DNA of 64,000 bases from Clostridia bacterium (GTDB lineage Bacteria > Bacillota > Clostridia > Oscillospirales > QAMX01): the NCBI GenBank assembly GCA_017441705.1, contig JAFRWU010000056.1, forward strand, positions 3,768 through 67,767, written 5' to 3'. Positions 8,596-31,134 of the stretch are shown one piece after another. How positions within the stretch are numbered: position 1 is the stretch's first letter; each line of letters starts with the position of its first letter. The notes below the pieces were generated by a model, which did not search any database, was not told where the DNA came from, and worked only from the letters and a program-made list of their open reading frames with translations. Made by a program: the position numbers and the translations under genes.

Positions 8596-10560
8596 ATGAA
8601 AAAACTCTGGAGCGTTTTCTTGAACGGGAAGATGCGCCGGCTGGTGCTGGTCCTTTTTGACGTCTGCTGCTTTGCGGGAGTCAACGCCGCATATTACTGG
8701 GTCTGTACGGTGGCGGACGGATCCCCCCGATACAACAAAGAGGCGTATATCGTCGATTCGATTCTGCTTCTGGTGGGAATCTTCGGATTCCGGATCGCCC
8801 TGCAGGTCAACCAGAACGTCTGGCGCTATACCAATACGCTCGCTTATTTCGTCATGGTGGCCGCGGACGCGTCCGGCGGCCTTGCCGCCATGCTGATTTC
8901 CCGCACCATCGGATACTATCACGGCGTCTGGCATTTCGTGGTCGTGGCGTCTATGACCGACCTTCTGGCGCTGGTGTCCCGCTTTGCCTATCAGGTGGTC
9001 TACCGCAGACGCAACGCCATGCAGAACCTGTCCCATAAACGCAGCAACGTGGCGATCGTCGGCGCGGGACAGCTCGGATTCCTTCTCGCCAACGACCTTC
9101 TCGGCAACGTGACCTCCCGGTACAGACCGGTCTTCTTTATCGATCGGGACAACGCGAAGATCGGCAGCAGAGTAGCCGGCCTCGAGGTGTTCGGAGAGAA
9201 TATCGACGTTTACGCGATCATCCGGAAATACGACGTCGAGGAGATCTTCATCGCCCTGACCGAGCTCGACAACGAAAAAGCGTCCGCCATCTACGAATTC
9301 TATCGTCCCACCGGCTGCAAAATCAAAATATACGATATGCCTCTGAAGGAGGCGGACGCGAAGAACCGGCAGAAGGCTGCGCTTCGCGATTTCCAGATCG
9401 AGGACCTCCTTTTCCGGAAGCCTTTGACCATCAACAACCTGGAAGCCCGTTATTACTATACGGGAAAGACGGTGCTGGTGACCGGAGGCGGCGGCTCGAT
9501 CGGCAGCGAGCTTTGCCGTCAGGTTGCCGCCTGCCGTCCGGATAAGCTGATCATCTTCGACATTTATGAGAATAACGCTTACGATATCCAGCAGGAGCTT
9601 CTCCGTAAATACGGCGACGATCTGAACTTCAGCGTTGAGATCGGCTCCGTAAGAGACCGGGAGAGGCTTCGCGCCGTGTTTTCCAACTATCGTCCGCAGA
9701 TCGTTTTTCATGCCGCCGCGCACAAGCACGTCCCACTGATGGAACACAGCAGCGCCGAAGCGATCAAGAACAACGTCCTCGGAACGTACAATACGGCCGA
9801 TATGGCGGAGGAATACGGCACCGAAAAATTCATCCTGATTTCCACCGACAAGGCCGTCAACCCCACCAACGTCATGGGCGCCTCCAAAAGAATGTGCGAG
9901 ATGGTGGTCCAGAGCCGCACGGACAGCGCTACGTCCTTTGCGGCGGTGCGCTTCGGCAACGTCCTCGGATCCAACGGATCGGTGATCCCGCTTTTCAAAA
10001 GGCAGATCGCCGCAGGCGGCCCCGTCACCATAACGGACAAGCGTATCATCCGGTATTTTATGACCATCCCGGAGGCAAGCCAGCTGGTGATGCACGCCGG
10101 CGCCATGGCCAAAAAGGGCGAGCTCTTCGTCCTGGATATGGGGAAACCGGTCCGGATCTACGATCTGGCGGTCAATATGATCCGGCTTTCCGGACTGGAA
10201 CCCGAAAGAGACGTGGAGATCCAGGAGATCGGCCTTCGCCCCGGCGAAAAGCTTTACGAGGAGCTCCTGATCAAGACCGAGGATCTGGAAACGACCGAAA
10301 ACAAGATGATTTTCGTGGAAAAGGATACTCCGCTTTCCCGGGCGGAGGTCGACCGCCGCATCGAGATCCTGACGGACGCCGTCAGGAAGTCGGAGGGGGA
10401 GATCTCCTCCTCCGAAATCAAGAAGGCTTTCGCCAGAGTGGTCCCGACCTTCCACGATCCGGACGAGATCAACAGCAAGGCGGCCGAGGCCGAGGAAATG
10501 AAGGAGTTCACGCTCCTTTCCTCCAAAGCGCCGCATAATCCCGGACGAAAGCTTTCCTGA
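8596..10560 (+). CDS. Membrane-bound UDP-GlcNAc 4,6-dehydratase (CapD/PglF/WbpM family)
   Basis: Four N-terminal TM helices, VTGGGGSIGSELCRQ, HAAAHKHVPLME, STDKAVNPTNVMGASK, RFGNVLGSNGSVIP. Confidence 0.95.
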   Translation: MKKLWSVFLNGKMRRLVLVLFDVCCFAGVNAAYYWVCTVADGSPRYNKEAYIVDSILLLVGIFGFRIALQVNQNVWRYTNTLAYFVMVAADASGGLAAMLISRTIGYYHGVWHFVVVASMTDLLALVSRFAYQVVYRRRNAMQNLSHKRSNVAIVGAGQLGFLLANDLLGNVTSRYRPVFFIDRDNAKIGSRVAGLEVFGENIDVYAIIRKYDVEEIFIALTELDNEKASAIYEFYRPTGCKIKIYDMPLKEADAKNRQKAALRDFQIEDLLFRKPLTINNLEARYYYTGKTVLVTGGGGSIGSELCRQVAACRPDKLIIFDIYENNAYDIQQELLRKYGDDLNFSVEIGSVRDRERLRAVFSNYRPQIVFHAAAHKHVPLMEHSSAEAIKNNVLGTYNTADMAEEYGTEKFILISTDKAVNPTNVMGASKRMCEMVVQSRTDSATSFAAVRFGNVLGSNGSVIPLFKRQIAAGGPVTITDKRIIRYFMTIPEASQLVMHAGAMAKKGELFVLDMGKPVRIYDLAVNMIRLSGLEPERDVEIQEIGLRPGEKLYEELLIKTEDLETTENKMIFVEKDTPLSRAEVDRRIEILTDAVRKSEGEISSSEIKKAFARVVPTFHDPDEINSKAAEAEEMKEFTLLSSKAPHNPGRKLS

Positions 10561-10625
10561 AAAAGCGTATTCAAAAAACGCAGTACGGTATTGGCATCAT
10601 GTACTGAGGAGGAGAAAACACGGAT

Positions 10626-11381
10626 ATGGAAACCTATCAGAACGTCAGGACGGTGGATCTGAGGCATCTCATAGTAAGGATCCTTTCAAAGTGGTACTGG
10701 CTTGTCGGCGCGATGGCGTTCGGCGCGATCGCCGCGCCCCTGGTGCGGTTCCTGAAACTGCGGTCTGATTACAACACGCAGATGGAAGCGTTCAAAAGCG
10801 GGACGTCCAACGTGATCGAGCCCGTAGCCCCGTCCTTTCCCTTCCTCTATATCCTGACGGGACTGCTTGCCGGCGCCGTCGCCGCGATCCTGGTGTTCTG
10901 GGTGATCGAGCTTCTGGACAACAAACTGAAAAGCGCCGCGGAGCTGGTCATCCCTGAAGGCGTTCAGGTCCTGGCCGAGGTAAAGATATCCAGAGACGAT
11001 AAAACGACGCGCTTCGCCAAGAAGCTGATGCACATCGATCAGCCGCGTCCGGAAAAGAAGGAAACCGAGCTCCTGTGCGCCAAGCTTGTGGCTGCGTCCC
11101 GCAACAAGGAATACAAGGCGCTTTTGCTGGCGGGCAGGATCGAAGGACGCGCGAACGTGGTCGTCAGGACGGTCATCGACGTTCTGACACAGGCCGGCGT
11201 TTCGATCGAATGGATCGGAGACGTCCTTCAGGATCCGCGCGCGATCCTGAAGCTCAACCCGGATGCGGGCGTCGTGCTGGTGGAAACGGTGGGCAAAACG
11301 ACTTACCAGACGCTGGACGGAGAGCTTGCGGAGTGCCGGAATCAGGGCGCGGAGCTCGTCGGCTTCGTGGCCCTCAGCTGA
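10626..11381 (+). CDS. Compact Wzz/CpsC-like co-polymerase fused to a degenerate CpsD-like domain
   Basis: Wzz-like N-terminus (TVDLRHLIVRILSKWYWL+TM), second TM then LDNKLKS, CpsD-like tail (GVVLVETVGKTT...LVGFV) without Walker A. Confidence 0.65.
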   Translation: METYQNVRTVDLRHLIVRILSKWYWLVGAMAFGAIAAPLVRFLKLRSDYNTQMEAFKSGTSNVIEPVAPSFPFLYILTGLLAGAVAAILVFWVIELLDNKLKSAAELVIPEGVQVLAEVKISRDDKTTRFAKKLMHIDQPRPEKKETELLCAKLVAASRNKEYKALLLAGRIEGRANVVVRTVIDVLTQAGVSIEWIGDVLQDPRAILKLNPDAGVVLVETVGKTTYQTLDGELAECRNQGAELVGFVALS

Positions 11382-11476
11382 CGGCGGATCGCGGCCGCGT
11401 TTCGGTAAATCGAATTGAATTGATTCCGGACGGCAGATACCGCGCGTATCCGTCCGTCTGATCCAAAGGAAAAGAT

Positions 11477-12793
11477 ATGGATAAAGATACCATCAGAAAC
11501 GATCCGAGATTTCGAGGACTGACCCCTTTTTCTTCCCGTATCTGGCTATCCTCCCCGACGATGCACGGCGAGGAACAGAAATGGGTGGACGAAGCGATCC
11601 GGACGAACTGGGTCAGTACCGTCGGAGAAAATATCAACGAAGTCGAGCGACAGATGGCGGAATACGTCGGCTGCAGATATGCGGTGGCGCTGTCCGCCGG
11701 TACTGCCGCTCTGCATCTTGCTACCAGGCTTGCCGGAGAAAAGCTTTACGGCCAGGCGCGGCCCGAACGGGGCACGCTTTCGGGCAGAAAAGTCTTCTGC
11801 TCGGACTGCACCTTCGACGCATCGATCAACCCGGTGGGATATGAAGACGGCGAGGCCGTATTCATCGACACGGAATACGATACGTGGAATATGGATCCCG
11901 TCGCGCTGGAAAAAGCGTTTTCGCTCTATCCGGACGTCCGGCTGGCGGTCGTGGCGCATCTCTACGGGACGCCCGGCAAAATGGACCGGATCAGGGAGAT
12001 CTGCGAGGAGCACGGCGCGCTGATCGTCGAGGATGCGGCCGAAAGCCTCGGGGCGAAATACAGGCTGGGGGACCGGTGGGTAGAAACCGGGACCCTCGGA
12101 CAGTATAACTGCATCAGCTTCAACGGCAACAAGATCATCACCGGCAGCGCGGGCGGCATGTTCCTGACCGATTCCCGCGAGGATGCGGAAAAGGTCCGCA
12201 AATGGTCTACCCAGAGCCGCGAGGCCGCTCCCTGGTATCAGCACGAGGAGATCGGCTACAACTACCGGATGAGCAATATCGTCGCGGGCGTCATTCGCGG
12301 ACAGCTCCCGTACCTTGCGGAGCATATCGCCCAGAAAAGGGCGGTATGGGAACGCTATGAGAAGGGTCTCGCCGATCTGCCGGTCAGGATGAATCCCTGG
12401 GACCGGGAAAAGAGCGTTCCGAATTTCTGGCTGAGCTGCATGATCATCGACCGGGACGCCATGGCGCCGTCGATCAGGGGAGAGCGGGAATATCTCTATC
12501 AAAGCGAAGCCGGAAAAAGCTCGCCGCACGAAATCCTGGACGCATTGGCGGCCTTCGGCGCGGAGGGACGGCCGATCTGGAAGCCCATGCATATGCAGCC
12601 GATCTACCGCTCGAATCCCTTCGTAACGGCGGAGGGAAGCGGACGCGGAAAAAGCAACGCCTACATCGCGGGGACCGGCGTCGACGTCGGCGCGGATATT
12701 TTCCGGCGCGGTCTGTGCCTCCCGTCTGACAACAAGATGACGAAAGAGCAGCAGGACGTCATTATCGAGATCATTCACAGGTGCTTCGAGTAA
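11477..12793 (+). CDS. DegT/DnrJ/PglE-family PLP sugar aminotransferase
   Basis: LSAGTAALHLA, VEDAAESLG, SFNGNKIIT (PLP lysine), GYNYRMSN, GLCLPS. Confidence 0.95.
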   Translation: MDKDTIRNDPRFRGLTPFSSRIWLSSPTMHGEEQKWVDEAIRTNWVSTVGENINEVERQMAEYVGCRYAVALSAGTAALHLATRLAGEKLYGQARPERGTLSGRKVFCSDCTFDASINPVGYEDGEAVFIDTEYDTWNMDPVALEKAFSLYPDVRLAVVAHLYGTPGKMDRIREICEEHGALIVEDAAESLGAKYRLGDRWVETGTLGQYNCISFNGNKIITGSAGGMFLTDSREDAEKVRKWSTQSREAAPWYQHEEIGYNYRMSNIVAGVIRGQLPYLAEHIAQKRAVWERYEKGLADLPVRMNPWDREKSVPNFWLSCMIIDRDAMAPSIRGEREYLYQSEAGKSSPHEILDALAAFGAEGRPIWKPMHMQPIYRSNPFVTAEGSGRGKSNAYIAGTGVDVGADIFRRGLCLPSDNKMTKEQQDVIIEIIHRCFE

Positions 12794-12902
12794 ACGGTTG
12801 AATGCGAATCGGGCGTCGCGCAAGGGGAAACTCCATCGACATATCCTGCGGGAGGAGCGCCCGCGTTTTGAAAAGCAAGTACACGATTGGAGAGAATTGG
12901 CA

Positions 12903-13538
12903 ATGACACACAAGCCCAAAGGGCCCTATGAACGGTTTATAAAGCGTCCGCAGGATTTCCTTCTTGCACTGGCCGCGTTGATTGTACTGAGTCCGGTGTT
13001 GATTGTGACTGCCATTGTCGTACGAATCAAGCACGGCTCTCCGGTTTTGTTCTCTCAGGAAAGGCCGGGGCGGAATGGAAAGCTGTTCAGGATTTACAAA
13101 TTCCGGACCATGAAGGATATCTTTGATGAGAAGGGAAATCCGTTTCCGGATGAGGACAGATTGACCGCTTTCGGACAAAAGCTGCGCAGCACGTCTCTTG
13201 ACGAACTGCCGGAACTGTTCAATATCCTGAAAGGCGATATGAGCATCGTCGGACCGCGCCCTTTGCTTGCGCGATATCTCACCAGATACAATAAACATCA
13301 GGCGCGCCGGCACGAGGTCCGGCCGGGCCTGACGGGATTGGCACAGATTCACGGCAGGAACGCGATCAGCTGGGCAGACAAATTCAACTGGGACGTCAAA
13401 TATGTCGACAACGTTACGTTTCTGGGCGACTGGAGCATCATCCTGAAAACGGTATTGAAGGTTTTCAAACGGGAAGGGATCAGTCTGGAATCGTTTGCGA
13501 CTACCGAAGAATTTATGGGGAATCCAGAAGATGAATGA
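12903..13538 (+). CDS. PglC-like priming phosphoglycosyl transferase
   Basis: KR..D, single TM, KFRTM, SLDELPELFNILKGDMSIVGPRP, RPGLTGLAQ. Confidence 0.95.
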   Translation: MTHKPKGPYERFIKRPQDFLLALAALIVLSPVLIVTAIVVRIKHGSPVLFSQERPGRNGKLFRIYKFRTMKDIFDEKGNPFPDEDRLTAFGQKLRSTSLDELPELFNILKGDMSIVGPRPLLARYLTRYNKHQARRHEVRPGLTGLAQIHGRNAISWADKFNWDVKYVDNVTFLGDWSIILKTVLKVFKREGISLESFATTEEFMGNPEDE

Positions 13539-14193
13539 CGTAAAAAAGATCGTATTGATAGGAGCCGGGGGATTCGGCCGTGAAGTGGCTTCCATGATTG
13601 AAGTACTCAACGAAATAAAGCCGACGTATGAGCTTTTGGGTTTTCTGGACGATGGCAGCCAGTATCACGACGGGGTTGTGATCAATGGGTATCCGTGGCT
13701 CGGGAACCATGATTGGATCGTTGAGCATAAAGCGGAAACGGTTTGCACGTGTTGTATCGCCAATCCGAAGATCAAAAAGAAAATCCAGGAGGAGCTCACA
13801 GAAAAAGGGGTCGTATTTGAAACGATCATTGCGTATAAGGGATTCGGCTACATCGGACCGGGGACCGAGATCGGACCGGGCTGCGTCTTTTACGGAGGCG
13901 TCACCATCTCCGTCGATTGCAAAATTGGCGCCGGAGTCGTGATGAACCAGATGGTGAATATCGGACACGACGTTTCTATCGGGGATTATACGACGATCAT
14001 GCCGTTTACCGGGATCAGCGGAAACTGTAAGGTCGGCGAGACGGTCAATATCGGAGGGCATGCTTTTGTCGTTCCCGGCAGGAAGATCGGCGACGGCGCT
14101 ACGGTGGCTGCAGGAAGCATCGTATTTGCAAACGTGAAGGCCGGCACGACTGTGCTTGGAAATCCCGCAAAGAGGATGAGGGAACTGGAATAA
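13531..14193 (+). CDS. PglD/NeuD-like hexapeptide-repeat N-acyltransferase
   Basis: IGAGGFGRE N-domain, GFLDD, left-handed beta-helix repeats with IGHD, GNPAK end. Confidence 0.92.
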   Translation: MNDVKKIVLIGAGGFGREVASMIEVLNEIKPTYELLGFLDDGSQYHDGVVINGYPWLGNHDWIVEHKAETVCTCCIANPKIKKKIQEELTEKGVVFETIIAYKGFGYIGPGTEIGPGCVFYGGVTISVDCKIGAGVVMNQMVNIGHDVSIGDYTTIMPFTGISGNCKVGETVNIGGHAFVVPGRKIGDGATVAAGSIVFANVKAGTTVLGNPAKRMRELE

Positions 14194-22996: not shown

Positions 22997-23176
22997 ATGG
23001 AGACAGAAAAGATTCTTGCGATGGCCGTCGCTGCAGCGGCGGAAGAAAACGGAGTCGAGCCTAAGAGGATCATTGTCCGGTCCTTTCGGGAGATCCATAA
23101 GAGCAGTCTGGAAAAGTTTATTGCGGACAATCACATCACCTATCACAAATATCAATTGGAGGATTCGAGAGCATGA
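22997..23176 (+). CDS. Small accessory subunit of the carboxyltransferase complex (OadG/MmdD/epsilon-like, no TM anchor)
   Basis: 59 aa, ILAMAVAAAAEE...IIVRSFREI; GGAGGGG RBS; position between CT and biotin carrier; ATGA overlap with next gene. Confidence 0.6.
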   Translation: METEKILAMAVAAAAEENGVEPKRIIVRSFREIHKSSLEKFIADNHITYHKYQLEDSRA

Positions 23177-24976: not shown

Positions 24977-24994
24977 CAGAGAAAGGCGATTGCG

Positions 24995-26080
24995 ATGGCT
25001 TTTTTTCATTTCGATTCTGTACGTATTGCCGGAGTAGCCTCTGCTGTTCCTACAAAAAGAGTAAAAGTTGAGAGCTTTACAGAGAGATTCGGACAGGATA
25101 CCGTCGAAAGATTTTCCAAAATGACGGGAGTGAAGGAGTTCAGGCAGACTCTGGAACACCAAACGGCTTCAGATCTTGGTTTCGCGGCAGCGGAGCAGCT
25201 GCTCCGGACAAAGCAGGTCTGCCGGGATGAGATTGGCGCGTTGATTTTTATCGCGCACAGCGTCGATTACCGGAGGCCGGCAACTGCCTGCGTACTGCAT
25301 AAAAGACTTGGACTCTCAAAGGACTGCGCGGCTTTTGATATTGGTCTGGGCTGTTCTGCAACGGTTTACGGTCTGCAGGCAGCAGGTTCGATGATGGCGA
25401 ATTCCGATATATCCAAGGCGTTGCTGATAACGGGAGAAAGCCTGACAAAGATGGTCAATCCCGGCGATAAATCCGTAGCCATGCTGTTCGGCGACGGAGG
25501 ATCGGCGATCCTGCTGGAGAAGCAAAAGGATTCTCCGATGGATATTCTTCTGCGGACCGATGGCAACGGTTATAACGCTATTATTGCACCGGCCGGCGGA
25601 TACAGAAATATGGATGCCCCGCGTCAGGACGCAGTCTGGCCGGACGGCAATATCAGAAACCTGTACAACACCTATATGAACGGGACGGACGTGTTCAGCT
25701 TTACGATCACCGAGGTGCCGGCTGCAATCAGGGACTTCGTTGAAAAAACCGGCGTTGGAATTGATGAATATGATTGCTTTGCTTTTCATCAGGCCAATCA
25801 GTATATCTCGAAGCAGTTAGCCAAGAAATTCAAGATCCCTATGGAGAAGATGCCGTTATGCCTTGACCGTTATGGGAATACGTCGGCTCCGGCCGCGACA
25901 ATGGCACTGTGTGATCGTTACGGAGAGGAAAGCGGTTCAGAGATCAAGACCATGTTTTGCTGTTTTGGCGTAGGCTTGTCCTGGGGGGTTGCTTCTGCTG
26001 CAATCAACACGGAGGACATCCTTCCGATCATTGAAACGGATGAGATCTTTGAAGAAGGGATCATCAACGAACCGTTTTGA
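24995..26080 (+). CDS. Ketoacyl-ACP synthase III family (2)
   Basis: DIGLGCS, FHQAN, YGNTS triad; FGDGG; FGVGLSWG. Confidence 0.93.
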   Translation: MAFFHFDSVRIAGVASAVPTKRVKVESFTERFGQDTVERFSKMTGVKEFRQTLEHQTASDLGFAAAEQLLRTKQVCRDEIGALIFIAHSVDYRRPATACVLHKRLGLSKDCAAFDIGLGCSATVYGLQAAGSMMANSDISKALLITGESLTKMVNPGDKSVAMLFGDGGSAILLEKQKDSPMDILLRTDGNGYNAIIAPAGGYRNMDAPRQDAVWPDGNIRNLYNTYMNGTDVFSFTITEVPAAIRDFVEKTGVGIDEYDCFAFHQANQYISKQLAKKFKIPMEKMPLCLDRYGNTSAPAATMALCDRYGEESGSEIKTMFCCFGVGLSWGVASAAINTEDILPIIETDEIFEEGIINEPF

Positions 26081-26091
26081 GGAGAAGTGGT

Positions 26092-26844
26092 ATGATTCAG
26101 TATAATTTTACCGGAAAGCGGATATTGGTGACGGGAGCGTCGTCCGGGATAGGGGCCGCTGTCACCAGGACCCTCGCCGACGCGGGGGCGGAAGTGATTA
26201 TGGTCGCAAAAAATGCCGAGAAGCTGGCTTCAGCAGCGGAATCGTTGGGCGTTAAGGCGTTTTACCCCATCGACTTATCGGACGTCGCGAGCCTTGGCGC
26301 GCAGGTAGAAGCGATCATAAAAGAGCGCGGCCCTCTTGACGGCTTCGTTCACAGCGCGGGGATCGGAACAGTACGTCCGATTAAAATGTGCACCTATGAT
26401 TATATGAAGCAGATGATGGATATCAATTTCTTCTCTTTCATTGAAATCATCCGGGTGATCACGAAGAAGAAAAACTTCAATGAGGGCATGGGCATCGTCG
26501 GAATCTCTTCCGTGGCCGCAGAGGAGGGGAATCAAAGCAAGACGGGTTACTGCGCTTCAAAAGCCGCGATGAATGGAGCGATCAGATGCCTGGCGAAGGA
26601 ACTGGCGCCCAAGAAGATCCGGGTGAATGCCGTGATGCCGGGAATCACGAGAACGGCAATCTTTGATCAGATCATGGACAACGGCGGAGACTCGGACGAC
26701 CTGAAGGGGATCCTTCAGAGACAGTATCTGGGCGTCTGCGAGCCGGATAATATCGCGAATACAGTGGCGTTTCTTCTGTCAGAGGAATCAAACTTCATCA
26801 CCGGGTCTGCCGTCGCGGTGGATTCGGGAAGGCTGTCGTCCTAA
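26092..26844 (+). CDS. SDR ketoreductase, FabG-like (2)
   Basis: TGASSGIG, HSAG, YCASK, IRVNAVMPG. Confidence 0.9.
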   Translation: MIQYNFTGKRILVTGASSGIGAAVTRTLADAGAEVIMVAKNAEKLASAAESLGVKAFYPIDLSDVASLGAQVEAIIKERGPLDGFVHSAGIGTVRPIKMCTYDYMKQMMDINFFSFIEIIRVITKKKNFNEGMGIVGISSVAAEEGNQSKTGYCASKAAMNGAIRCLAKELAPKKIRVNAVMPGITRTAIFDQIMDNGGDSDDLKGILQRQYLGVCEPDNIANTVAFLLSEESNFITGSAVAVDSGRLSS

Positions 26845-26867: not shown

Positions 26868-28055
26868 ATGGATAAGATCATCACGCTTGCCGAAAAAGAA
26901 CGGTGTACCGGCTGCGGCGCCTGTAAAGAAACCTGTCCCAAAGGGGCGATTTCTTTTTTGCCGGATCAGGAAGGGTTTCCTTCGCCGGTGATCGACGACG
27001 AAAAATGCATTCGGTGCGGAATGTGTGAAAAGGCTTGTCCCGCTTTGCATTTGCCGGAAACGCACGCCATACAGGCGGCCTATGCCGCACAGATCAACGA
27101 TGAAGCTGCCCTCAAGGACAGCACGTCGGGCGGTCTGTTTACCGCTTTCGCGCGCGAAGCGTTCCGCCGCGACGGCGTTGTCTATGGCTGCGTATGGGAC
27201 GACGAGTATCATGCCGTGATCCGCAAAGCGGAGAACGAAGAAGAGATCAAGCCTATGCGCGGTTCCAAGTACGTCTGGAGCTGGGCGGGCGACGCCTTCC
27301 CGGAAATCAAAGCGTATCTGGAGAGCGGACGGACGGTGCTGTTTACCGGACTGCCCTGTCAGGCGGCCGGCCTGAAAAGCTATCTGAAAAAGGATTATGA
27401 TAATCTGCTGCTGGTCGATTGCCTCTGCAGCGGTGCGCCGAGCCCTATGGCGTTGGATTTGTATCTGGATACGATTTGCAAAAAAGAGGATCGAAAAAAT
27501 CTGAACCTGAAGTTCAGAGATAAAGATCCTTACGGCGTCGGCGTGCATATCACGTATACCGGCAAGAAAAAGAGAATCAAAAAGGGAGAACACATCAGGA
27601 ATCCCTACTATTGGAGCTTCTATACGCGGCTGGTAGATCGCGAGTCCTGTTATCAGTGCCCTTACGGTTCCGGCGATCGGGTTTCGGATATCACCATAGG
27701 GGATTTTTGGGGTATTTCAGAGTATCATCAGGAATTCAAGGTGCGGGACGGCGTCAGCGCGCTGTTAGTCAATTCAGACAAGGGAAAACAGTTCCTTGCC
27801 GGGCTTACACCGGGATTAAACCTGTCTGAAACAGACCCAATGAACATAGCCAAAGAAAACAACCTTTTTATCGGAAACAGGAAGAGAAACATTCATAAAC
27901 CCCTTAATCGCGCAGACTTTTTTTCCGTACTCAAGGAAAAGGGCTGGAAAGCTGCGGAACGCAGGTTCCTGTTTACAAAGGGCAGGATGCTCCGGATGGT
28001 TTATACGGCCCTTCCGGCACGCGGTGCAAAATTGATACGAAAAATCGTGCGGTAA
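26868..28055 (+). CDS. FrhB-like (F420 hydrogenase beta C-terminal domain) Fe-S protein with N-terminal 2x[4Fe-4S]
   Basis: CTGCGACKETCP, CIRCGMCEKACP, STSGG, GSKYV, FTGLPCQ, RESCYQC, SDITIGDFWG. Confidence 0.88.
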   Translation: MDKIITLAEKERCTGCGACKETCPKGAISFLPDQEGFPSPVIDDEKCIRCGMCEKACPALHLPETHAIQAAYAAQINDEAALKDSTSGGLFTAFAREAFRRDGVVYGCVWDDEYHAVIRKAENEEEIKPMRGSKYVWSWAGDAFPEIKAYLESGRTVLFTGLPCQAAGLKSYLKKDYDNLLLVDCLCSGAPSPMALDLYLDTICKKEDRKNLNLKFRDKDPYGVGVHITYTGKKKRIKKGEHIRNPYYWSFYTRLVDRESCYQCPYGSGDRVSDITIGDFWGISEYHQEFKVRDGVSALLVNSDKGKQFLAGLTPGLNLSETDPMNIAKENNLFIGNRKRNIHKPLNRADFFSVLKEKGWKAAERRFLFTKGRMLRMVYTALPARGAKLIRKIVR

Positions 28056-28068
28056 AGAGGTGTCGTTC

Positions 28069-29160
28069 ATGTTGCGAGTGTGCGGAATCACATTTGTTCG
28101 TACCACTAATTACGGTACCTGTTTTCAGGCGTATGCTTTGCAAAAGGCAATTGACGGGATAACTGTCGGGAACGGGGTAAAATGCCAATGTGAGTTCGTC
28201 CCGCTTTGGCGCTGCAAAGATCATTTTTCAAACAAACAAAGTACGTTTTTTTACTCGCACTTTTTCCGCTTTTTCAAAAGGTTTCAGGAAGACGGCATCC
28301 GGTATGCCGATTGTAAGAGTATTCGTGAGCTGCCTTCTCTGAATCAGGAATACGATGCTTTTGTATGCGGAAGCGACGTAATCTGGAATCCTGTTTTCAA
28401 TCGACGACTGGGATTGTATTATTTGGATTTCGCAAACAAGTATAAGTTTTCTTACGCGCCAAGCTTCGGCAAGGCGAATATAGAGGATCCTTTTCTGAAT
28501 GAAGCGGGACGATGGATATCGGAGTTGGCAGAGATTAGCGTAAGGGAACCGTCTGCCGTAGAGATAGTAAAAGAATATGCCGGCCGGGAAGCACAGGTGG
28601 TTACCGATCCGGTTCTGCTTTTAGCACCGGACGAATGGAAACGGATCACTGAAATCAGAAGGGATACTGGCCGTTATATTTTTTCCTATACGACTCACAG
28701 TACGTCTGAATATGAACAGTTTCTCCGAAAACTGTCGAAGCAGACCGGACTGAAGGTGATAAGGGCGGTTTGGGTCAGAGGCACGAAAGCCGCGCTTAAG
28801 CAAAAGAGAATCATGATTCAATCACCTGAAAAATGGCTTAGTCAGCTTTGCGGTGCGGAATATGTTGTAACGAACTCATTCCATGCAACCGTCTTTTCAT
28901 CCATGCTGCATAAGAAGTTCTTTACGGTCGTACATGGAGAAAAAGACGAAGGGTCAAACATCAGGATGTATGACTATTTAAAAGCAACGGGCTTGCAGGA
29001 TCGGATGTATTGCTCGATTCCGGAGACGATCGATCTGTCCGACGTCGATTTCTCAGGCTCGGACGATTCGATTCATGAAATGCGCGAGAAGGGGCTTGCC
29101 TTCCTGCGGGAAAACCTGGAAGCCGCCTGGAAAGAAAAGAACCGCGAAAAAACGCCGTGA
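28069..29160 (+). CDS. Polysaccharide pyruvyl transferase family protein (1)
   Basis: NYG..FQAYAL, CGSDVIWN, YAPSFG, ISVRE, DPVLL, TNSFHATVFS. Confidence 0.88.
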   Translation: MLRVCGITFVRTTNYGTCFQAYALQKAIDGITVGNGVKCQCEFVPLWRCKDHFSNKQSTFFYSHFFRFFKRFQEDGIRYADCKSIRELPSLNQEYDAFVCGSDVIWNPVFNRRLGLYYLDFANKYKFSYAPSFGKANIEDPFLNEAGRWISELAEISVREPSAVEIVKEYAGREAQVVTDPVLLLAPDEWKRITEIRRDTGRYIFSYTTHSTSEYEQFLRKLSKQTGLKVIRAVWVRGTKAALKQKRIMIQSPEKWLSQLCGAEYVVTNSFHATVFSSMLHKKFFTVVHGEKDEGSNIRMYDYLKATGLQDRMYCSIPETIDLSDVDFSGSDDSIHEMREKGLAFLRENLEAAWKEKNREKTP

Positions 29161-29323: not shown

Positions 29324-30454
29324 ATGATTAAAGTATGCGGCGTGACCTTTGCAAACGGCGTGAACTACGGCAGCGAGATGCAGCTCTATGCCTTGAGAAC
29401 GGCGATTGACAGGATCACCGTTGAGGGCGAACCCTGCGAATACCATCTTGTGTTTTCGGTCCAGGATTATGTGCGGTATCACAACGCTCTGAAACGGGAA
29501 TTCGCAAAATTTATCAAGAATGTTTTGAGAAGGCCCTTCGCCCGGTTTGAGAAAAAATGGCTGGTTTACGCGCCTGCGAAAAAACCGCAGGATCTGCCGG
29601 CGCTGAACCGTTATTATGACGCATTCGTTTGCGGCAGCGACGTCATATGGAACCCTGATTTCAACAATAAACTGGAGCACTACTATCTGGGCTTTGCGGA
29701 AAAGTACGCGTTTTCCTATGCGGCAAGCTTCGGAAAGCAGAAACTGTCCGATTCGGAAATCGAGTTTGCCCGAAAGCGTCTGAGCAGACTGTCGGCGATA
29801 AGCGTTCGGGAAAAAAGCGGCGCTTTGCTTGTACAGGAAAAGCTGGGTATTCCGGCCGTTATGATGCCGGATCCGGTGCTTCTCTTGAACCGCGAGGAAT
29901 GGGAAAAGACCGCATCCCCGGCCAAACCCAAGGAAAAGTATGCGCTGATTTATTCAACCGCGCCGCAGCTGCCCGGCTTTAAGATCATGAACGAACTGGC
30001 GGCACAAACCGGATGCAAGGTAAAAACCGTCAAGTGGGTCATGGGCGTGGCACAGAAGATCAAGCAGGGCGTGTTTCGCTTCGAAGCGCCGGAGGAATGG
30101 CTGGAGCTTATCCGGGACGCGGAATATGTTTTTACCAACTCCTTCCACGCGACGGTTTTCTCTGTGATCTTCCACAAAAAAGTGTTCGCCATTGTCGAAG
30201 GCAAGAAAACGGATGGCTACAACGTTCGTATTTATGACTTTATGGAGGACGTGGGGTTGGGGGATCGAATCCTTTCCTCCATGCCGGAAACGTTGGATCT
30301 GTCCGAGCCTGATTTCGCCCGGGCCGATCGCGTAATGGAAGCGTGGCGGGAGCAAGGCACGACCTATCTGAAAAACAATCTGGAAGCTGCTTATCGGGAA
30401 AAACAAGCTCTTGAGCAAAAGCTCCGTAAGCAGCCGGAAAAGGATTGTCAGTAA
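29324..30454 (+). CDS. Polysaccharide pyruvyl transferase family protein (2)
   Basis: NYGSEMQLYAL, CGSDVIWN, YAASFG, ISVRE, DPVLL, TNSFHATVFS; GAGGT RBS. Confidence 0.88.
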   Translation: MIKVCGVTFANGVNYGSEMQLYALRTAIDRITVEGEPCEYHLVFSVQDYVRYHNALKREFAKFIKNVLRRPFARFEKKWLVYAPAKKPQDLPALNRYYDAFVCGSDVIWNPDFNNKLEHYYLGFAEKYAFSYAASFGKQKLSDSEIEFARKRLSRLSAISVREKSGALLVQEKLGIPAVMMPDPVLLLNREEWEKTASPAKPKEKYALIYSTAPQLPGFKIMNELAAQTGCKVKTVKWVMGVAQKIKQGVFRFEAPEEWLELIRDAEYVFTNSFHATVFSVIFHKKVFAIVEGKKTDGYNVRIYDFMEDVGLGDRILSSMPETLDLSEPDFARADRVMEAWREQGTTYLKNNLEAAYREKQALEQKLRKQPEKDCQ

Positions 30455-30552
30455 GCGATCGGCACGCAGCTGACAGGGGCGAAAGAGCCGTTCTGCCTTC
30501 GCGAGAATCTTGAAATTGCGTATCATCAGAAACAGGACCTGGAGAAACAGAA

Positions 30553-31134
30553 TTGCTGATTGAATGGGCTCCGATTACCGAATTTATTGCCCCCCCTCCG
30601 TTTGACGGCGACTTGCTGAATCACCTGAAAAAACGGAAAGGGGCGGGTAAAACCGCTTCGTATTCCGCGTGGTGGTTGTTGTATCGGATTTTGAAGAATA
30701 ACGGCATGTCCATAGGAAGGGTTGCCTTCACCGATACAGGAAAACCGTTTTTTGTCGGCGACGCGGTATTCTTCAGTCTTTCTCACAGCAAAGAGCTTTG
30801 CGCCGTGTCCGTTTCCGACCGCCCGGTCGGCGTAGACATGGAGATCTGCCGTGAGGATTATAATCCGCATCTGGTCGAGCGATCTATGACAAAAGGGGAG
30901 CGCGCGGCTTTCGACGGGGATTTCACGCGGCTCTGGTGCAGAAAAGAGAGCGTTGCCAAGTTGACCGGCGAAGGGATCGCGGGATATCCCAACCGGATCG
31001 ACACGCTTTCGCCTCGATACGCCTATATCGAAAGAAAACTGGAATTCAACGGTCATACCTACTGGCTCGTCACAGCCGGGATAAACTCATATCAGGTTCA
31101 GGGAGAGGAGAATGGATATGAAACGGGCAAATAA
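30553..31134 (+). CDS. Sfp-type 4'-phosphopantetheinyl transferase
   Basis: GKP, FSLSHS, VGVDME, WCRKES..K motifs. Confidence 0.88.
   Translation: MLIEWAPITEFIAPPPFDGDLLNHLKKRKGAGKTASYSAWWLLYRILKNNGMSIGRVAFTDTGKPFFVGDAVFFSLSHSKELCAVSVSDRPVGVDMEICREDYNPHLVERSMTKGERAAFDGDFTRLWCRKESVAKLTGEGIAGYPNRIDTLSPRYAYIERKLEFNGHTYWLVTAGINSYQVQGEENGYETGK

What the first reader, a model, noticed from the sequence alone, without database searches (positions are those of the whole stretch)
8596..31134. Surface-polysaccharide locus with a self-contained mini-polyketide line, predicted to N-acylate a bacillosamine-type sugar
Seen: one co-directional locus interleaves PglF/E/C/D-like genes, wzx and wzy with FabD, two KAS III (both Cys-His-Asn intact), two SDR ketoreductases, two ACPs, an MBL hydrolase and an Sfp PPTase. 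It has no FabZ/FabA dehydratase, no enoyl reductase and no FabF. Established: PglF+PglE chemistry gives a UDP-4-amino-4,6-dideoxy-HexNAc whose 4-amine is acylated by PglD-like enzymes, and hydroxyacyl-amido sugars (3-hydroxybutyryl, 3,5-dihydroxyhexanoyl) are known in Gram-negative O-antigens. Inference: two condensations plus two ketoreductions without dehydration would give a 3,5-dihydroxyacyl chain (dihydroxyhexanoyl with an acetyl primer), loaded from ACP onto the amino sugar. A complete version with its own extender supply and PPTase in a clostridial wall polymer is the best candidate for an undescribed system here.
Basis: partly seen in the sequence, partly recalled or inferred. Interest (0 to 1): 0.82.

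Follow-up and report, generated by a model that had tools for sequence, protein, structure and literature searches.

The report
Sugar-acylating mini fatty-acid line in capsule locus
A rumen Clostridium that has lost its own fatty-acid synthesis carries an acquired surface-polysaccharide gene island that brings everything needed to build a short hydroxylated acyl chain, probably to decorate an amino sugar, a kind of system already predicted in a fish pathogen but here in an unusually self-sufficient form.

Summary
Window 8596-31134 is one co-directional Wzx/Wzy locus. It holds PglF/E/C/D-like genes, FabD, two KAS III (Cys-His-Asn intact), two SDR reductases, two ACP genes, an MBL hydrolase and an Sfp-type PPTase. 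It has no FabF, dehydratase or enoyl reductase.

No GT-A/GT-B glycosyltransferase is present.

The genome (98.4% complete) lacks FabF, FabZ and biotin carboxylase, as do its congeners. These fab-like genes therefore cannot make membrane lipid. The island is absent from 40 relatives and has lower GC.

It is already in print as a prediction for Flavobacterium psychrophilum wfpC-G, whose O-antigen carries exactly that group.

KAS III/SDR/ACP cassettes beside PglD-like genes occur in 80 fetched loci of Bacillota and Bacteroidota, with 1-4 KAS genes each.

New here is the self-sufficient version: its own malonyl-CoA supply, FabD, ACP and PPTase in a host without FASII or ACC. The product remains untested.

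Verdict: new variant of a known kind; moderate interest.

The parts
8596..10560 (+). PglF/CapD/WbpM-like membrane-anchored UDP-HexNAc 4,6-dehydratase. The ORF opens at TTG 8572; the likely start is ATG 8596.
   Evidence: PF02719 at 404 bits plus CoA_binding_3. Below cut-off matches to PseB and FnlA. Start candidates.
10626..11381 (+). Orphan membrane protein of 251 aa, possibly a Wzz/CpsC-like chain-length regulator. Function not settled.
   Evidence: No Pfam or NCBIfam hit. Only 3 proteins at E<=1e-5, itself included. The Atlas gives 'hypothetical' clusters, with a Wzz lead only at rank 30, score 0.83. The AF2 model has pLDDT 49.6 with two long N-terminal helices and an alpha/beta C-terminal part.
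11477..12793 (+). DegT/PglE-type sugar 4-aminotransferase.
   Evidence: PF01041 at 228 bits. LegC-family match of 275 bits, below cut-off.
12798..13538 (+). Small PglC-like polyprenyl-phosphate sugar-1-phosphate transferase, the initiating enzyme.
   Evidence: PF02397 at 206 bits. TIGR03025 C-terminal half.
13531..14193 (+). PglD/NeuD/VioB-family left-handed beta-helix N-acyltransferase, the only acyltransferase in the locus. The ORF opens at 13495.
   Evidence: PglD_N + Hexapep. TIGR03570 at 161.2 bits against a cut-off of 160.8. Best PDB relatives are VioB 7txp, 4m9c, 4m98 and PglD 3bss. The GHD His is kept in 37 of 42 cassette homologues.
14224..15696 (+). Wzx flippase.
   Evidence: PF01943 at 83 bits.
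15693..16619 (+). FabD malonyl-CoA:ACP transacylase, the only one in the genome.
   Evidence: TIGR00128 at 281 bits against a cut-off of 260.9. Sole PF00698 hit in the genome. Motif is GFSLGE, with Arg and the SAPFH His present.
16616..17248 (+). MBL-fold hydrolase of glyoxalase-II type, proposed as an editing thioesterase acting on ACP. The ORF opens at 16502.
   Evidence: PF00753 at 70 bits. Nearest PDB entries are 2zwr and hydroxyacylglutathione hydrolases, all weak. Found in 32 of 80 related loci, often directly after the ACP gene.
17299..18069 (+). SDR ketoreductase 1. The ORF opens at 17245.
   Evidence: adh_short_C2 at 171 bits and KR domain. FabG-like below cut-off. YxxxK and the Gly-rich motif are present.
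18090..19175 (+). KAS III-1, proposed to carry out the second condensation.
   Evidence: ACP_syn_III N and C domains. Cys-His-Asn invariant. Belongs to a separate 14-row clade with 99% local support.
19235..19456 (+). ACP copy 1 (73 aa, DSM Ser35).
   Evidence: PF00550. S35 invariant in 45 cassette ACPs.
19528..19749 (+). ACP copy 2, with an identical 73-aa product. The ORF opens at 19504.
   Evidence: 9 of 222 nt differ from copy 1, all synonymous third positions.
19890..21386 (+). Wzy repeat-unit polymerase.
   Evidence: TIGR04370 at 107.7 bits against a cut-off of 40. PF01901.
21432..22982 (+). 12S-like acyl-CoA carboxyltransferase, the only PF01039-type gene found in the genome by tblastn.
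   Evidence: PF01039 at 617 bits. 605 bits to the P. shermanii 12S structure 1on3. No paralogue in the genome.
22997..23176 (+). Conserved 59-aa ORF between the carboxyltransferase and the biotin carrier.
   Evidence: 48-71% identical ORF at the same place in all 5 loci that carry the set, and in 7 housekeeping-type operons. No Pfam hit.
23173..23565 (+). 1.3S-like biotin carboxyl carrier (EAMKM).
   Evidence: PF00364 at 60 bits. NF005117 below cut-off. Sequence.
23576..24976 (+). 5S-like oxaloacetate/pyruvate carboxyltransferase without a biotinyl domain. The ORF opens at 23513.
   Evidence: HMGL-like + PYC_OADA. Matches positions 2-444 of the 591-position PycB profile.
24995..26080 (+). KAS III-2, proposed as the initiating condensing enzyme.
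   Evidence: ACP_syn_III domains. Cys-His-Asn intact. Belongs to a 75-row clade that includes the single-KAS loci.
26077..26844 (+). SDR ketoreductase 2.
   Evidence: adh_short_C2 at 178 bits. YxxxK present.
26868..28055 (+). FrhB-like Fe-S/flavin protein that travels with the pyruvyl-transferase homologues.
   Evidence: FrhB_FdhB_N and C plus 2x4Fe-4S. Co-occurs with Pyr homologues in L014, L015, L066, L088 and L025.
28060..29160 (+). Polysaccharide pyruvyl-transferase homologue 1.
   Evidence: PF04230 at 97 bits.
29324..30454 (+). Polysaccharide pyruvyl-transferase homologue 2, 44% identical to homologue 1. The ORF opens at 29075.
   Evidence: PF04230 at 112 bits. Paralogy; start.
30553..31134 (+). 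Sfp/AcpT-type 4'-phosphopantetheinyl transferase.
   Evidence: PF01648 at 35.8 bits against a cut-off of 25. AusB and AcpT matches below cut-off. A second PPTase lies elsewhere, on C60.

Best explanation
This is a horizontally acquired Wzx/Wzy-dependent surface-polysaccharide island. Its first sugar is a UDP-4-amino-4,6-dideoxy-HexNAc made by the PglF-like dehydratase and the DegT aminotransferase.

A dedicated carrier-protein line builds a short hydroxyacyl chain:
1. A soluble four-gene transcarboxylase makes malonyl-CoA from acetyl-CoA and oxaloacetate.
2. The Sfp-type PPTase activates the duplicated ACP.
3. FabD loads malonate onto the ACP.
4. KAS III-2 and SDR-2 make 3-hydroxybutyryl-ACP.
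5. KAS III-1 and SDR-1 add and reduce a second C2 unit. With no dehydratase or enoyl reductase, the result is a 3,5-dihydroxyhexanoyl thioester.
6. The PglD-like enzyme transfers this acyl group to the 4-amine.
7. The PglC-like enzyme puts the sugar on undecaprenyl phosphate.
8. The pyruvyl-transferase homologues, perhaps with the FrhB-like protein, modify it.
9. Wzx flips the unit and Wzy polymerises it.
10. The MBL hydrolase probably frees mis-loaded ACP.

Shown: gene content, intact catalytic motifs, absence of FASII and ACC in the host, the accessory nature of the island, and the recurrence of the cassette.

Inferred: every chemical step, the order of the two KAS enzymes, the chain length, the ACP donor and the acceptor.

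My odds: about 0.75 that the line makes an acyl decoration of the amino sugar, and about 0.4 that it is exactly 3,5-dihydroxyhexanoyl.
For: Gene content and motifs.

Not a fatty acid synthase:
- The own genome (98.4% complete) has no PF00109, PF07977 or Biotin_carb_C hit.
- FabF, FabZ, a FabK-like gene, AccB and AccA of a relative's fab cluster find nothing in it by tblastn, while flanking housekeeping genes match at 52-77%.
- PlsX x2, DegV x2 and a housekeeping ACP beside PlsX are present.
- None of the 4 congeners has FabF.

Accessory island:
- A KAS2 homologue above 31% identity occurs in G000 alone among 41 genomes, G000 and its 40 relatives.
- GC is 0.48-0.55 in the locus against 0.57-0.62 in the flanks.
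- Two congeners carry no locus gene after ruvX.

Coupling to the amino sugar, in 80 related loci:
- A PglD-like gene lies within 9 kb in 50 of 80, and ends within 300 bp upstream of a KAS in 33 of 80.
- A DegT gene occurs in 39 of 80 and an ACP in 53 of 80.
- Cassette KAS form a clade apart from 5 housekeeping FabH, with 100% local support, and KAS1 and KAS2 types form separate clades.

Precedent:
- F. psychrophilum wfpC/wfpE (KAS), wfpD (ACP), wfpF (KR) and wfpG (PglD homologue) are predicted to make the NMR-proven 3,5-dihydroxyhexanoyl-Qui2NAc4N (PMC6519341, passages).
- The same sugar is reported in V. cholerae O100 and O3 (PMC12024518 and PMC8074265, passages).

Malonyl-CoA supply:
- The 12S-like, 59-aa, 1.3S-like and 5S-like genes keep their order in 5 of 80 loci.
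- There is no biotin carboxylase in the genome, no beta pump subunit in the locus and no methylmalonyl-CoA mutase.
- Among 260 FabF-positive genomes out of 399 Clostridia genomes, this carboxyltransferase alone occurs in 131, ACC-type biotin carboxylase alone in 77, both in 5 and neither in 47.
- The P. freudenreichii enzyme is stated to interconvert acetyl-CoA + oxaloacetate and malonyl-CoA + pyruvate (PMC12502205, passages).
- A four-gene putative transcarboxylase is used for malonyl-CoA formation in a model of ACC-less C. thermocellum (PMC5414155, passages).

ACP donor, weak only:
- Complex prediction of a PglD-like trimer with ACP gave 'weak support': median score 0.47 (0.56, 0.47, 0.37), best control 0.01.
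- That mark was reached by 58 of 80 solved complexes and 2 of 110 mismatched pairs. At 0.60 or under it was reached by only 7 of those 80, and by both mismatches that passed.
- The runs agree in at least 86% of contacts and the partner's pLDDT is at least 86.
- The pass may reflect likeness to solved complexes of beta-helix acyltransferases with ACP (recalled).

Both ACP copies are under purifying selection: 9 synonymous and 0 non-synonymous differences.

A weak hint of transcription: short contigs from 4 RNA-library runs of 3 studies match 12 locus genes with 0-4 mismatches (0-2 for all but one 81-base piece). The tool warns that DNA can be present in such libraries.
Against: - No chemistry was tested. 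The donor, the acceptor and the chain length are all inferred.
- PglD-family enzymes with solved structures are named as acetyltransferases.
- F. psychrophilum is predicted to make the same C6 chain with one reductase, and L088 has 2 KAS with 1 SDR, so gene numbers do not map simply onto chain length.
- Of 42 loci with at least 6 kb on both sides, 13 have 1 KAS with 2 SDR.
- The order KAS2 then KAS1 rests on single-KAS loci that were retrieved with KAS2-type patterns, so it is biased.
- The carboxyltransferase's nearest characterised relatives act on propionyl- or methylmalonyl-CoA, so a methylmalonyl extender is not excluded.
- The in-locus set also occurs in two genomes that have FabF and AccC (G002, G005). 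Self-sufficiency is therefore not simply a response to FASII loss.
- AccC was found in only 11 of the 32 locus-bearing genomes, with no enrichment either way.
- No glycosyltransferase is in the locus, so the nature of the polymer is unclear.
- Homology to the F. psychrophilum wfp genes themselves was not tested.
- The class-wide counts are not corrected for relatedness.
Confidence: 0.6

Rival explanations
1. The same line makes a different acyl group. It could stop at 3-hydroxybutyryl, with the second KAS/SDR pair redundant or making a second acyl group. Alternatively the KAS III enzymes could iterate and give a longer polyhydroxy chain.
For: - N-(3-hydroxybutanoyl)-QuiN4N is far commoner than the C6 form in known glycans (PMC8074265, passages).
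- V. cholerae O100 carries both acyl groups on two different sugars.
- KAS and SDR numbers vary without a simple rule: 1-4 KAS and 0-4 SDR across the 80 loci.
- L035 has 4 KAS, 3 SDR, 2 ACP and 2 FabD, and may hold two lines.
Against: - The window has only one aminotransferase and one N-acyltransferase, so a single amine is available.
- KAS1 and KAS2 belong to distinct conserved clades rather than being recent duplicates.
- The one published case with two KAS genes has the C6 dihydroxy chain.
Confidence: 0.2
2. The extender is methylmalonyl-CoA made from propionyl-CoA by the transcarboxylase. The product would then be a methyl-branched hydroxyacyl chain.
For: - The best family matches of the carboxyltransferase are methylmalonyl-CoA decarboxylase alpha (768 bits, below cut-off), propionyl-CoA carboxylase beta and the 12S subunit.
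Against: - The acyltransferase passes the FabD equivalog model for malonyl transfer.
- The carboxyltransferase family is almost mutually exclusive with ACC-type biotin carboxylase in FabF-positive Clostridia, which points to malonyl-CoA as its product.
- No methylmalonyl-CoA mutase was found in this genome or in 5 genomes with the closest or next-closest operons: 4 at 75-83% identity and 1 (G096) at 62%.
- The known glycans of this type carry unbranched chains.
Confidence: 0.08
3. The hydroxyacyl chain is not put on the amino sugar. It serves instead as an O-acyl group, a lipid or primer anchor of the polymer, or a separate small molecule. In that case the PglD-like enzyme simply N-acetylates.
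For: - The solved relatives of the PglD-like protein are named acetyltransferases.
- In the window the PglD-like gene is separated from the KAS genes by wzx, fabD, the MBL gene and SDR1.
- An MBL-fold thioesterase could release a free acid.
Against: - No other acyltransferase is present in the locus.
- A PglD-like gene directly precedes a cassette KAS in 33 of 80 loci.
- F. psychrophilum strains that lack the acyl-chain genes carry different pglD homologues.
- There is weak computed support for a PglD-like/ACP contact: 0.47 against a best control of 0.01.
Confidence: 0.07
4. The fab-like genes are a remnant or replacement of housekeeping fatty acid synthesis for membrane lipids.
For: - They are the only FabD and KAS III genes in the genome.
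Against: - The genome has no FabF, FabZ, FabK-like enoyl reductase or ACC.
- Congeners lack both FabF and this locus.
- The genes sit between wzx and wzy in a lower-GC island.
- The cassette KAS form a clade apart from housekeeping FabH.
- A separate housekeeping ACP lies beside plsX and degV.
Confidence: 0.02

Closest known systems
Flavobacterium psychrophilum O-polysaccharide genes wfpB-wfpG (Cisar et al. 2019, PMC6519341)
   Same: Both have pglF/pglE-type genes, a PglC homologue as initiating transferase, two different 3-ketoacyl-ACP synthases, a dedicated ACP, a ketoreductase and a PglD homologue. The PglD homologue is predicted to move the ACP-bound chain onto UDP-Qui2NAc4N.
   Different: The published case is Gram-negative LPS. 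It has one reductase, and the passages read name no FabD, PPTase, MBL or carboxylase in its cluster. It has glycosyltransferases and a trisaccharide repeat. The window has two reductases, duplicated ACP, FabD, MBL, PPTase and a transcarboxylase, has no glycosyltransferase, and sits in a host without FASII. Sequence homology to the wfp genes was not tested, and Supplementary Table S1 was not available.
Campylobacter jejuni PglF/PglE/PglD/PglC pathway to N,N'-diacetylbacillosamine
   Same: The four enzyme families are the same and follow the same logical order. The pathway itself is as summarised in PMC6519341.
   Different: PglD there uses acetyl-CoA. Here the homologue (46 bits to PglD 3bss, 90 bits to VioB 7txp) is proposed to take a hydroxyacyl-ACP. 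The C4 stereochemistry of the window's sugar is unknown.
Type II fatty acid synthase initiation module (FabD, FabH, FabG, ACP)
   Same: The families and catalytic motifs are the same.
   Different: There is no FabF/B, FabZ/A or FabI/K anywhere in the genome. The cassette KAS III form a clade apart from housekeeping FabH. The ACP is a distinct family with an EYDSMAKLSLIVL core.
Propionibacterium 12S/5S/1.3S methylmalonyl-CoA:pyruvate transcarboxylase, and the putative four-gene transcarboxylase Clo1313_1523-1526 of C. thermocellum
   Same: A 12S-like hexamer-type carboxyltransferase (605 bits to 1on3), a 5S-like subunit without a biotinyl domain and a small biotin carrier are present, with no biotin carboxylase. 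The C. thermocellum set also has four genes and is used for malonyl-CoA formation in an ACC-less Clostridium in a metabolic model.
   Different: Here the set lies inside a polysaccharide locus of a host that has no FASII at all. It scores below the curated cut-offs of the named NCBIfam models. Its activity is untested.
LpxA/LpxD acyl-ACP-dependent left-handed beta-helix acyltransferases
   Same: They share the beta-helix fold family and sequence similarity in the hexapeptide region. They are a precedent for acyl-ACP use by this fold (recalled).
   Different: The domain architecture differs: the window protein has a PglD_N domain and lacks the LpxD C-terminal helical ACP-binding part (recalled). 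Only weak computed support exists for ACP binding.

Membership tests
Wzx/Wzy-dependent polysaccharide locus | Initiating polyprenyl-phosphate sugar-phosphate transferase | tested here: met
   PF02397 at 206 bits.
Wzx/Wzy-dependent polysaccharide locus | Wzx flippase and Wzy polymerase | tested here: met
   PF01943 at 83 bits. TIGR04370 at 107.7 bits against a cut-off of 40.
Wzx/Wzy-dependent polysaccharide locus | Glycosyltransferases that build a multi-sugar repeat unit | tested here: not met
   No GT family was found among the 23 ORFs of 8572-33631, nor in the flanking ORFs tested. Either the repeat is a single sugar or the glycosyltransferases lie elsewhere.
PglF/E/D-type 2,4-diamino-2,4,6-trideoxyhexose pathway | 4,6-dehydratase, 4-aminotransferase and PglD_N + hexapeptide N-acyltransferase | tested here: met
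PglF/E/D-type 2,4-diamino-2,4,6-trideoxyhexose pathway | gluco configuration at C4 (bacillosamine proper) | not testable with these tools
   The family models do not separate gluco from galacto products. The best aminotransferase models score below cut-off.
wfpC-G-type hydroxyacyl line of F. psychrophilum | Two different KAS, a dedicated ACP, a ketoreductase and a PglD homologue in one locus | tested here: met
.
wfpC-G-type hydroxyacyl line of F. psychrophilum | Orthology of the proteins to WfpC-G | not tested
   No F. psychrophilum sequence could be fetched. None was among the 80 loci kept, and Supplementary Table S1 is closed.
wfpC-G-type hydroxyacyl line of F. psychrophilum | 3,5-dihydroxyhexanoyl amide on the 4-amine | not testable with these tools
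   This needs NMR or MS of the polymer.
Type II fatty acid synthase | Elongating KAS I/II, 3-hydroxyacyl-ACP dehydratase and enoyl-ACP reductase | tested here: not met
   No PF00109 or PF07977 hit in the 98.4% complete genome. A relative's FabF, FabZ and FabK-like genes find nothing in it.
Biotin-dependent transcarboxylase (12S/5S/1.3S) | Acyl-CoA carboxyltransferase, keto-acid carboxyltransferase without its own biotinyl domain, and a separate small biotin carrier | tested here: met
   The set scores below the curated cut-offs of the named subunit models.
Biotin-dependent transcarboxylase (12S/5S/1.3S) | No biotin carboxylase partner and no membrane decarboxylase beta subunit | tested here: met
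   No Biotin_carb_C hit in the genome. The one OAD_beta gene lies on another contig, C80, not in the locus.
Biotin-dependent transcarboxylase (12S/5S/1.3S) | Carboxyl transfer from oxaloacetate to acetyl-CoA | not testable with these tools
   Supported only by the comparative pattern and by statements in papers.
Sfp-type phosphopantetheinyl transferase | ACPS-superfamily domain in a protein of about 200 aa | tested here: met
   PF01648 at 35.8 bits against a cut-off of 25, in a 193-aa protein. AusB, AcpT and HetI models score below cut-off.

The most novel reading that the evidence does not exclude
KAS III/ketoreductase/ACP cassettes may form a widespread combinatorial system. In it each discrete KAS III adds one C2 unit and no dehydration follows. 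Gene number (1-4) would then set the length of the polyhydroxyacyl N-decoration on capsule and wall amino sugars in gut Bacteroidota and Clostridia.

In this rumen Clostridium, which has lost FASII and ACC, the island would carry the cell's entire malonyl-CoA economy: a soluble four-subunit transcarboxylase, FabD, ACP and PPTase. All of it would serve only to decorate what may be a pyruvylated single-sugar homopolymer.
Probability: 0.3. Interest if true: 0.75.

Novelty: new variant of a known kind. Interest (0 to 1): 0.55.

Why it matters
Hydroxyacyl amides on bacillosamine-type sugars are serotype-defining epitopes in fish and human pathogens. Yet in the open literature searched here their acyl-chain biosynthesis is described only as a prediction.

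This locus and its 80 relatives show three things:
- The same logic is common in gut and rumen commensals of two phyla.
- The cassettes come in graded versions, with 1-4 KAS genes.
- They can be fully self-sufficient.

A host without FASII or ACC is a natural clean background. Malonyl-CoA, FabD and the cassette ACP there would have a single purpose, which makes genetic and labelling tests simple.

The side result matters for lipid metabolism and for modelling of gut anaerobes. The 12S-like carboxyltransferase operon and ACC-type biotin carboxylase are almost mutually exclusive among FabF-positive Clostridia (131 against 77, with 5 having both). This gives comparative support to a transcarboxylase route to malonyl-CoA that has so far only been assumed in a C. 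thermocellum model.

Tried and rejected
Literature searches that found nothing further:
- Terms for 3-hydroxybutanoyl/butyryl, ACP, KAS III, FabH, N-acyl and O-antigen or capsule gene clusters found no second description of such a line.
- A search on transcarboxylase in ACC-less Clostridia found nothing useful.
- A search linking F420-type proteins, pyruvyl transferases and carboxyethyl groups found nothing relevant.

Link between self-sufficiency and loss of host FASII or ACC:
- This was not borne out. Of the 5 fetched genomes with the in-locus carboxylase set, 2 (G001, G004) lack FabF and 3 (G002, G003, G005) have it.
- AccC was found in only 11 of 32 locus-bearing genomes, with no pattern.

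The orphan gene at 10626-11381:
- It has no family hit and 3 proteins at E<=1e-5, itself included.
- The Atlas gave only 'hypothetical' clusters.
- The AF2 model has pLDDT 49.6, too poor for a fold search, so none was run.

Other dead ends:
- Rfam found nothing in 7000-34000.
- The promoter and terminator scan was near shuffle expectation: 17 against 11.1 and 23 against 18.8. It was not used.
- The KAS1 query against 399 Clostridia genomes gave 8 hits at E<=1e-60, with all but G000 at 37-40% identity. Whether KAS1-type enzymes ever stand alone could not be told.
- In read laying, parts of the locus without cover in the RNA-library contigs mean nothing. The joints at 12141 and 17364 rest on single contigs with short sides and were ignored.
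- The housekeeping-FAS reading was considered and rejected (see rivals).
- A carboxyltransferase substrate-specificity residue was not read off, because it would have rested on recalled numbering.

Full report
**What is there**

The + strand from 8572/8596 to 31134 is filled by 23 co-directional genes with short or no gaps. Pfam and NCBIfam name them in this order:

- a PglF/CapD-like membrane 4,6-dehydratase
- an orphan 251-aa membrane protein
- a DegT aminotransferase
- a small Bac_transf initiating transferase
- a PglD_N + hexapeptide acyltransferase (TIGR03570, just above cut-off)
- Wzx
- FabD (equivalog model passed)
- an MBL-fold hydrolase
- SDR-1
- KAS III-1
- two ACPs
- Wzy
- a 12S-like carboxyltransferase
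- a 59-aa ORF
- a 1.3S-like biotin carrier
- a 5S-like subunit lacking a biotinyl domain
- KAS III-2
- SDR-2
- an FrhB-like Fe-S protein
- two PS_pyruv_trans homologues
- a 193-aa ACPS-family PPTase

Both KAS keep Cys-His-Asn. Both SDRs keep YxxxK. FabD keeps its Ser, Arg and His, although the motif reads GFSLGE. The ACP has a DSM serine.

None of these ORFs matches a dehydratase, enoyl-reductase or FabF family.

The two ACPs are a tandem duplicate giving the same 73-aa protein. All nine nucleotide differences are synonymous third positions, so both copies are kept by selection.

No GT-A/GT-B glycosyltransferase is present in the locus. None was found in the tested flanks either. Upstream lie ValRS, DUF362, an aldo-keto reductase, a PNP-family gene, an NTP-transferase and RuvX. 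Downstream lie an LRR/Ig surface protein, GH43, a LytTR regulator, ABC transporters, UvrD and GH95.

**The host has no fatty acid synthase**

The window lies in a 2.8-Mb genome rated 98.4% complete. That genome gives no hit to ketoacyl-synt (FabF/B), FabA/FabZ or Biotin_carb_C. The same searches ring in 14, 9 and 13 of 14 control genomes.

The two KAS III and the FabD of the locus are the only ones in the genome.

As an independent check I took the fab-acc cluster of a relative (L101). Its FabF, FabZ, FabK-like, AccB and AccA proteins find nothing in the genome by tblastn. The ribosomal and other genes beside them match at 52-77%.

The genome does have two PlsX, two DegV/FakB-type proteins, a housekeeping ACP beside plsX, and a second PPTase. 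This is the gene set expected for use of exogenous fatty acids (recalled knowledge).

None of the four other genomes of the genus has FabF. Within the family, 12 of 24 have it. These are the only fab genes, but they cannot make membrane lipid.

**The locus is an acquired island**

Among 40 relatives, none has a KAS2 homologue above 31% identity. The matches they do have, where I checked coordinates, lie a few kb from FabF and so are housekeeping FabH.

GC is 0.48-0.55 inside the locus and 0.57-0.62 outside.

In two congeners whose contigs run past ruvX, no locus gene follows.

The stretch 17245-26844 is held, at half of its words or more, by 15 runs. The 20 runs that hold at least part of it come from 12 studies. 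All are labelled gut, bovine or sheep metagenomes.

Short contigs from four RNA-library runs of three studies match twelve of the genes with 0-4 mismatches (0-2 for all but one 81-base piece). The tool warns that such libraries can contain DNA, so this is only a hint of expression.

**The cassette is a widespread family**

KAS2 has thousands of relatives. At least 3988 proteins score at E<=1e-3 among the 8000 scored, and the top 120 are all 63% identical or more.

A pattern scan of one genome per species found 172 relatives, and the best 80 loci were kept. By record title they come from Bacillota (Ruminococcaceae, Lachnospiraceae, Oscillospiraceae, [Clostridium] symbiosum ATCC 14940) and from Bacteroidota (Bacteroides, Paludibacteraceae, Odoribacter laneus YIT 12061, Chitinophaga, Saprospiraceae). 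A few carry other labels.

I ran tblastn of the window's proteins against these loci.

| Feature | Loci (of 80) |
|---|---|
| 1 KAS III | 51 |
| 2 KAS III | 26 |
| 3 KAS III | 1 |
| 4 KAS III | 2 |
| PglD-like gene within 9 kb | 50 |
| PglD-like gene ending within 300 bp upstream of a KAS | 33 |
| DegT gene | 39 |
| ACP | 53 |
| MBL | 32 |
| FabD | 9 |
| Carboxyltransferase (within 9 kb of the anchor KAS; 10 in the whole loci) | 8 |
| Full carboxylase set (L014, L015, L018, L066, L092) | 5 |

The window's whole double module recurs at 51-99% identity (53-99% for the fab-like genes, wzx 51-55%) in L014-L017 and L066.

A tree of 115 cassette KAS and 5 housekeeping FabH puts the cassette enzymes in one clade (100% local support). 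KAS1-type (14 rows, 99%) and KAS2-type (75 rows) fall in separate clades (FastTree, no bootstrap).

One four-KAS locus (L035) also lacks any dehydratase or enoyl reductase. It holds two ACPs and two FabDs.

Variants in O. laneus and C. symbiosum add AMP-binding ligases, a GNAT and further ACPs.

In an even sample of 399 Clostridia species genomes, only 8 including this one have a KAS1 match at E<=1e-60.

**How it most likely works**

The PglF-like and DegT enzymes would give a UDP-4-amino-4,6-dideoxy-HexNAc. This is established chemistry of the families, as summarised in PMC6519341. The C4 configuration here is unknown.

The carrier line would run as follows:
1. The PPTase makes holo-ACP.
2. 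FabD loads malonate.
3. One KAS III condenses acetyl-CoA with malonyl-ACP, and one SDR reduces the product.
4. The other KAS III and SDR repeat the cycle.

Without dehydration, the result is 3,5-dihydroxyhexanoyl-ACP.

I assign KAS2/SDR2 to the first round because the single-KAS loci carry KAS2/SDR2-type genes. Those loci were retrieved with KAS2-type patterns, so this is a weak inference.

The only enzyme able to make the amide is the PglD-like protein. Its nearest solved relatives are VioB, WeeI-type, PglB-type and PglD acetyltransferases of 4-amino sugars.

A computed test of a PglD-like trimer with the ACP gave 'weak support'. The median score was 0.47 against a best control of 0.01. That mark was reached by 58 of 80 solved complexes and 2 of 110 mismatches. 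At 0.60 or under it was reached by only 7 of the 80, and by both mismatches that passed. The runs agree in at least 86% of contacts, and the partner's pLDDT is at least 86. Solved beta-helix acyltransferase/ACP complexes may have helped this score (recalled).

The MBL protein resembles glyoxalase-II-type thioester hydrolases, though only weakly. In many Bacteroidota loci it follows the ACP gene. I propose an editing thioesterase, with low confidence.

**The extender supply**

The 12S-like protein scores 605 bits against the P. shermanii 12S structure.

The 5S-like protein covers positions 2-444 of a 591-position PycB profile, so it lacks the biotinyl domain. A separate 130-aa carrier has the EAMKM motif.

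A 59-aa ORF between them is conserved in all five loci that carry the set, and in seven housekeeping-type operons.

The genome has no biotin carboxylase and no methylmalonyl-CoA mutase. Its single decarboxylase beta subunit lies on another contig. That leaves carboxyl transfer from oxaloacetate as the likely reaction.

I followed this across 399 Clostridia genomes scored in three searches.

| Group | Carboxyltransferase only | ACC-type biotin carboxylase only | Both | Neither |
|---|---|---|---|---|
| FabF-positive (260) | 131 | 77 | 5 | 47 |

Of the 139 FabF-negative genomes, 6 have the carboxyltransferase (this one included) and 1 has ACC-type biotin carboxylase.

Relatives are not independent, so the Fisher value overstates the case. 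Still, the complementarity is visible family by family in the tool's own tallies.

The closest homologues (75-83% identical) lie in one genus. They keep the same four-gene order, with no cassette gene in the 1.5-kb flanks. Four genomes of that genus, and one genome (G096) of another genus whose operon is 62% identical, lack the mutase.

[quoted passage not shown] It also fits the use of the Propionibacterium enzyme to make malonyl-CoA from acetyl-CoA and oxaloacetate in engineered yeast (PMC12502205, passages).

So the island appears to carry a copy of a Clostridial housekeeping-type malonyl-CoA-forming enzyme.

The set is not confined to FASII-less hosts. G002 and G005 have FabF, AccC and the in-locus set.

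**Comparison with what is known**

The chemistry is known only from Gram-negative bacteria in the papers I saw:
- 3,5-dihydroxyhexanoyl-Qui2NAc4N occurs in F. psychrophilum (PMC6519341) and in V. cholerae O100 and O3 (PMC12024518, PMC8074265).
- 3-hydroxybutanoyl-QuiN4N occurs in many species (PMC8074265).

All of these were read as passages.

The gene-level model is in print for F. psychrophilum as a prediction. I found no biochemical reconstitution in five searches. Subscription journals are not covered by those searches. The V. cholerae O100 cluster paper (Perepelov et al. 2019) was seen only as a reference entry. Supplementary Table S1 of PMC6519341, which lists the wfp annotations, was closed.

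The window's locus works like the wfp system. I could not test orthology.

It differs from the wfp system in these respects:
- two reductases
- duplicated ACP
- its own FabD, PPTase, MBL and transcarboxylase
- pyruvyl-transferase and FrhB-like genes
- no glycosyltransferase
- a Gram-positive host without FASII or ACC

**Verdict**

The mechanism is reasonable and has a solved-structure precedent, but it is neither new as an idea nor tested here.

I rate it a new variant of a known kind, with interest 0.55.

What would raise the interest:
- proof of the glycan
- proof that KAS number sets chain length
- proof of the transcarboxylase route to malonyl-CoA

Noticed in passing
window 21432-24976, and 399 Clostridia genomes: The 12S-like carboxyltransferase operon and ACC-type biotin carboxylase are almost mutually exclusive among FabF-positive Clostridia: 131 genomes have only the former, 77 only the latter, 5 both and 47 neither. 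The carboxyltransferase is rare in FabF-negative genomes (6 of 139). This suggests a transcarboxylase is the usual malonyl-CoA source in about half of FASII-bearing Clostridia species. The counts are not corrected for relatedness.
   Followed up: partly
window 22997-23176: An unannotated 59-aa ORF lies between the carboxyltransferase and the biotin carrier. It is conserved at 48-71% in 5 cassette loci and at 45-65% in 7 housekeeping-type operons, and has no Pfam family. It may be a fourth subunit.
   Followed up: partly
window 19235-19749: There is a tandem ACP duplication with identical products and only synonymous differences (9 of 222 nt). L016 also has two copies, while L014, L015, L017 and L066 have one.
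   Followed up: yes
window 8572-33631 and flanks: No glycosyltransferase gene accompanies wzx, wzy and the initiating transferase. The repeat unit may be a single modified sugar, the glycosyltransferases may lie elsewhere, or the PS_pyruv_trans homologues may do something other than pyruvylation.
   Followed up: partly
window 26868-30454; also L014, L015, L025, L066, L088: FrhB-like Fe-S proteins travel with PS_pyruv_trans homologues; L088 has two of each. One idea, untested, is enolpyruvyl transfer followed by reduction to a lactyl (carboxyethyl) ether, by analogy with MurA/MurB. A literature search found nothing on this.
   Followed up: no
whole genome G000 and genus g1: The genus appears to lack FASII and ACC altogether: FabF in 0 of 5 genomes. 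It keeps PlsX x2, DegV x2 and two non-cassette ACPs, so it is probably a fatty-acid auxotroph.
   Followed up: partly
window 10626-11381: This is an orphan 251-aa membrane protein with only two other relatives in 5.8 billion clustered proteins at E<=1e-5. It sits where a chain-length regulator would be expected.
   Followed up: partly
L070 (Odoribacter laneus YIT 12061) 9357-17319; L086 ([Clostridium] symbiosum ATCC 14940) 8691-17483: Cultured strains carry cassette variants with AMP-binding ligases, a GNAT, extra ACPs and, in L086, a lone carboxyltransferase beside wzy. They would be convenient organisms for experiments.
   Followed up: partly
window 31112-33631; contigs C48, C38 and the C114 start: A BspA-type LRR protein with Ig-like repeats lies directly after the locus. 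It has several paralogues (43-69% identity in the repeats) elsewhere in the genome.
   Followed up: no
window 15693-16619: The FabD active-site motif reads GFSLGE instead of the usual GHSLGE (the usual form is recalled). The Ser, Arg and His are kept.
   Followed up: no
G033:C89 (L119) and G036:C364 (L120): In two congeners, homologues of window 7922-8164 lie beside genes that in the window sit 36-46 kb away. The region after ruvX is therefore rearranged between species, not just interrupted by the island.
   Followed up: partly
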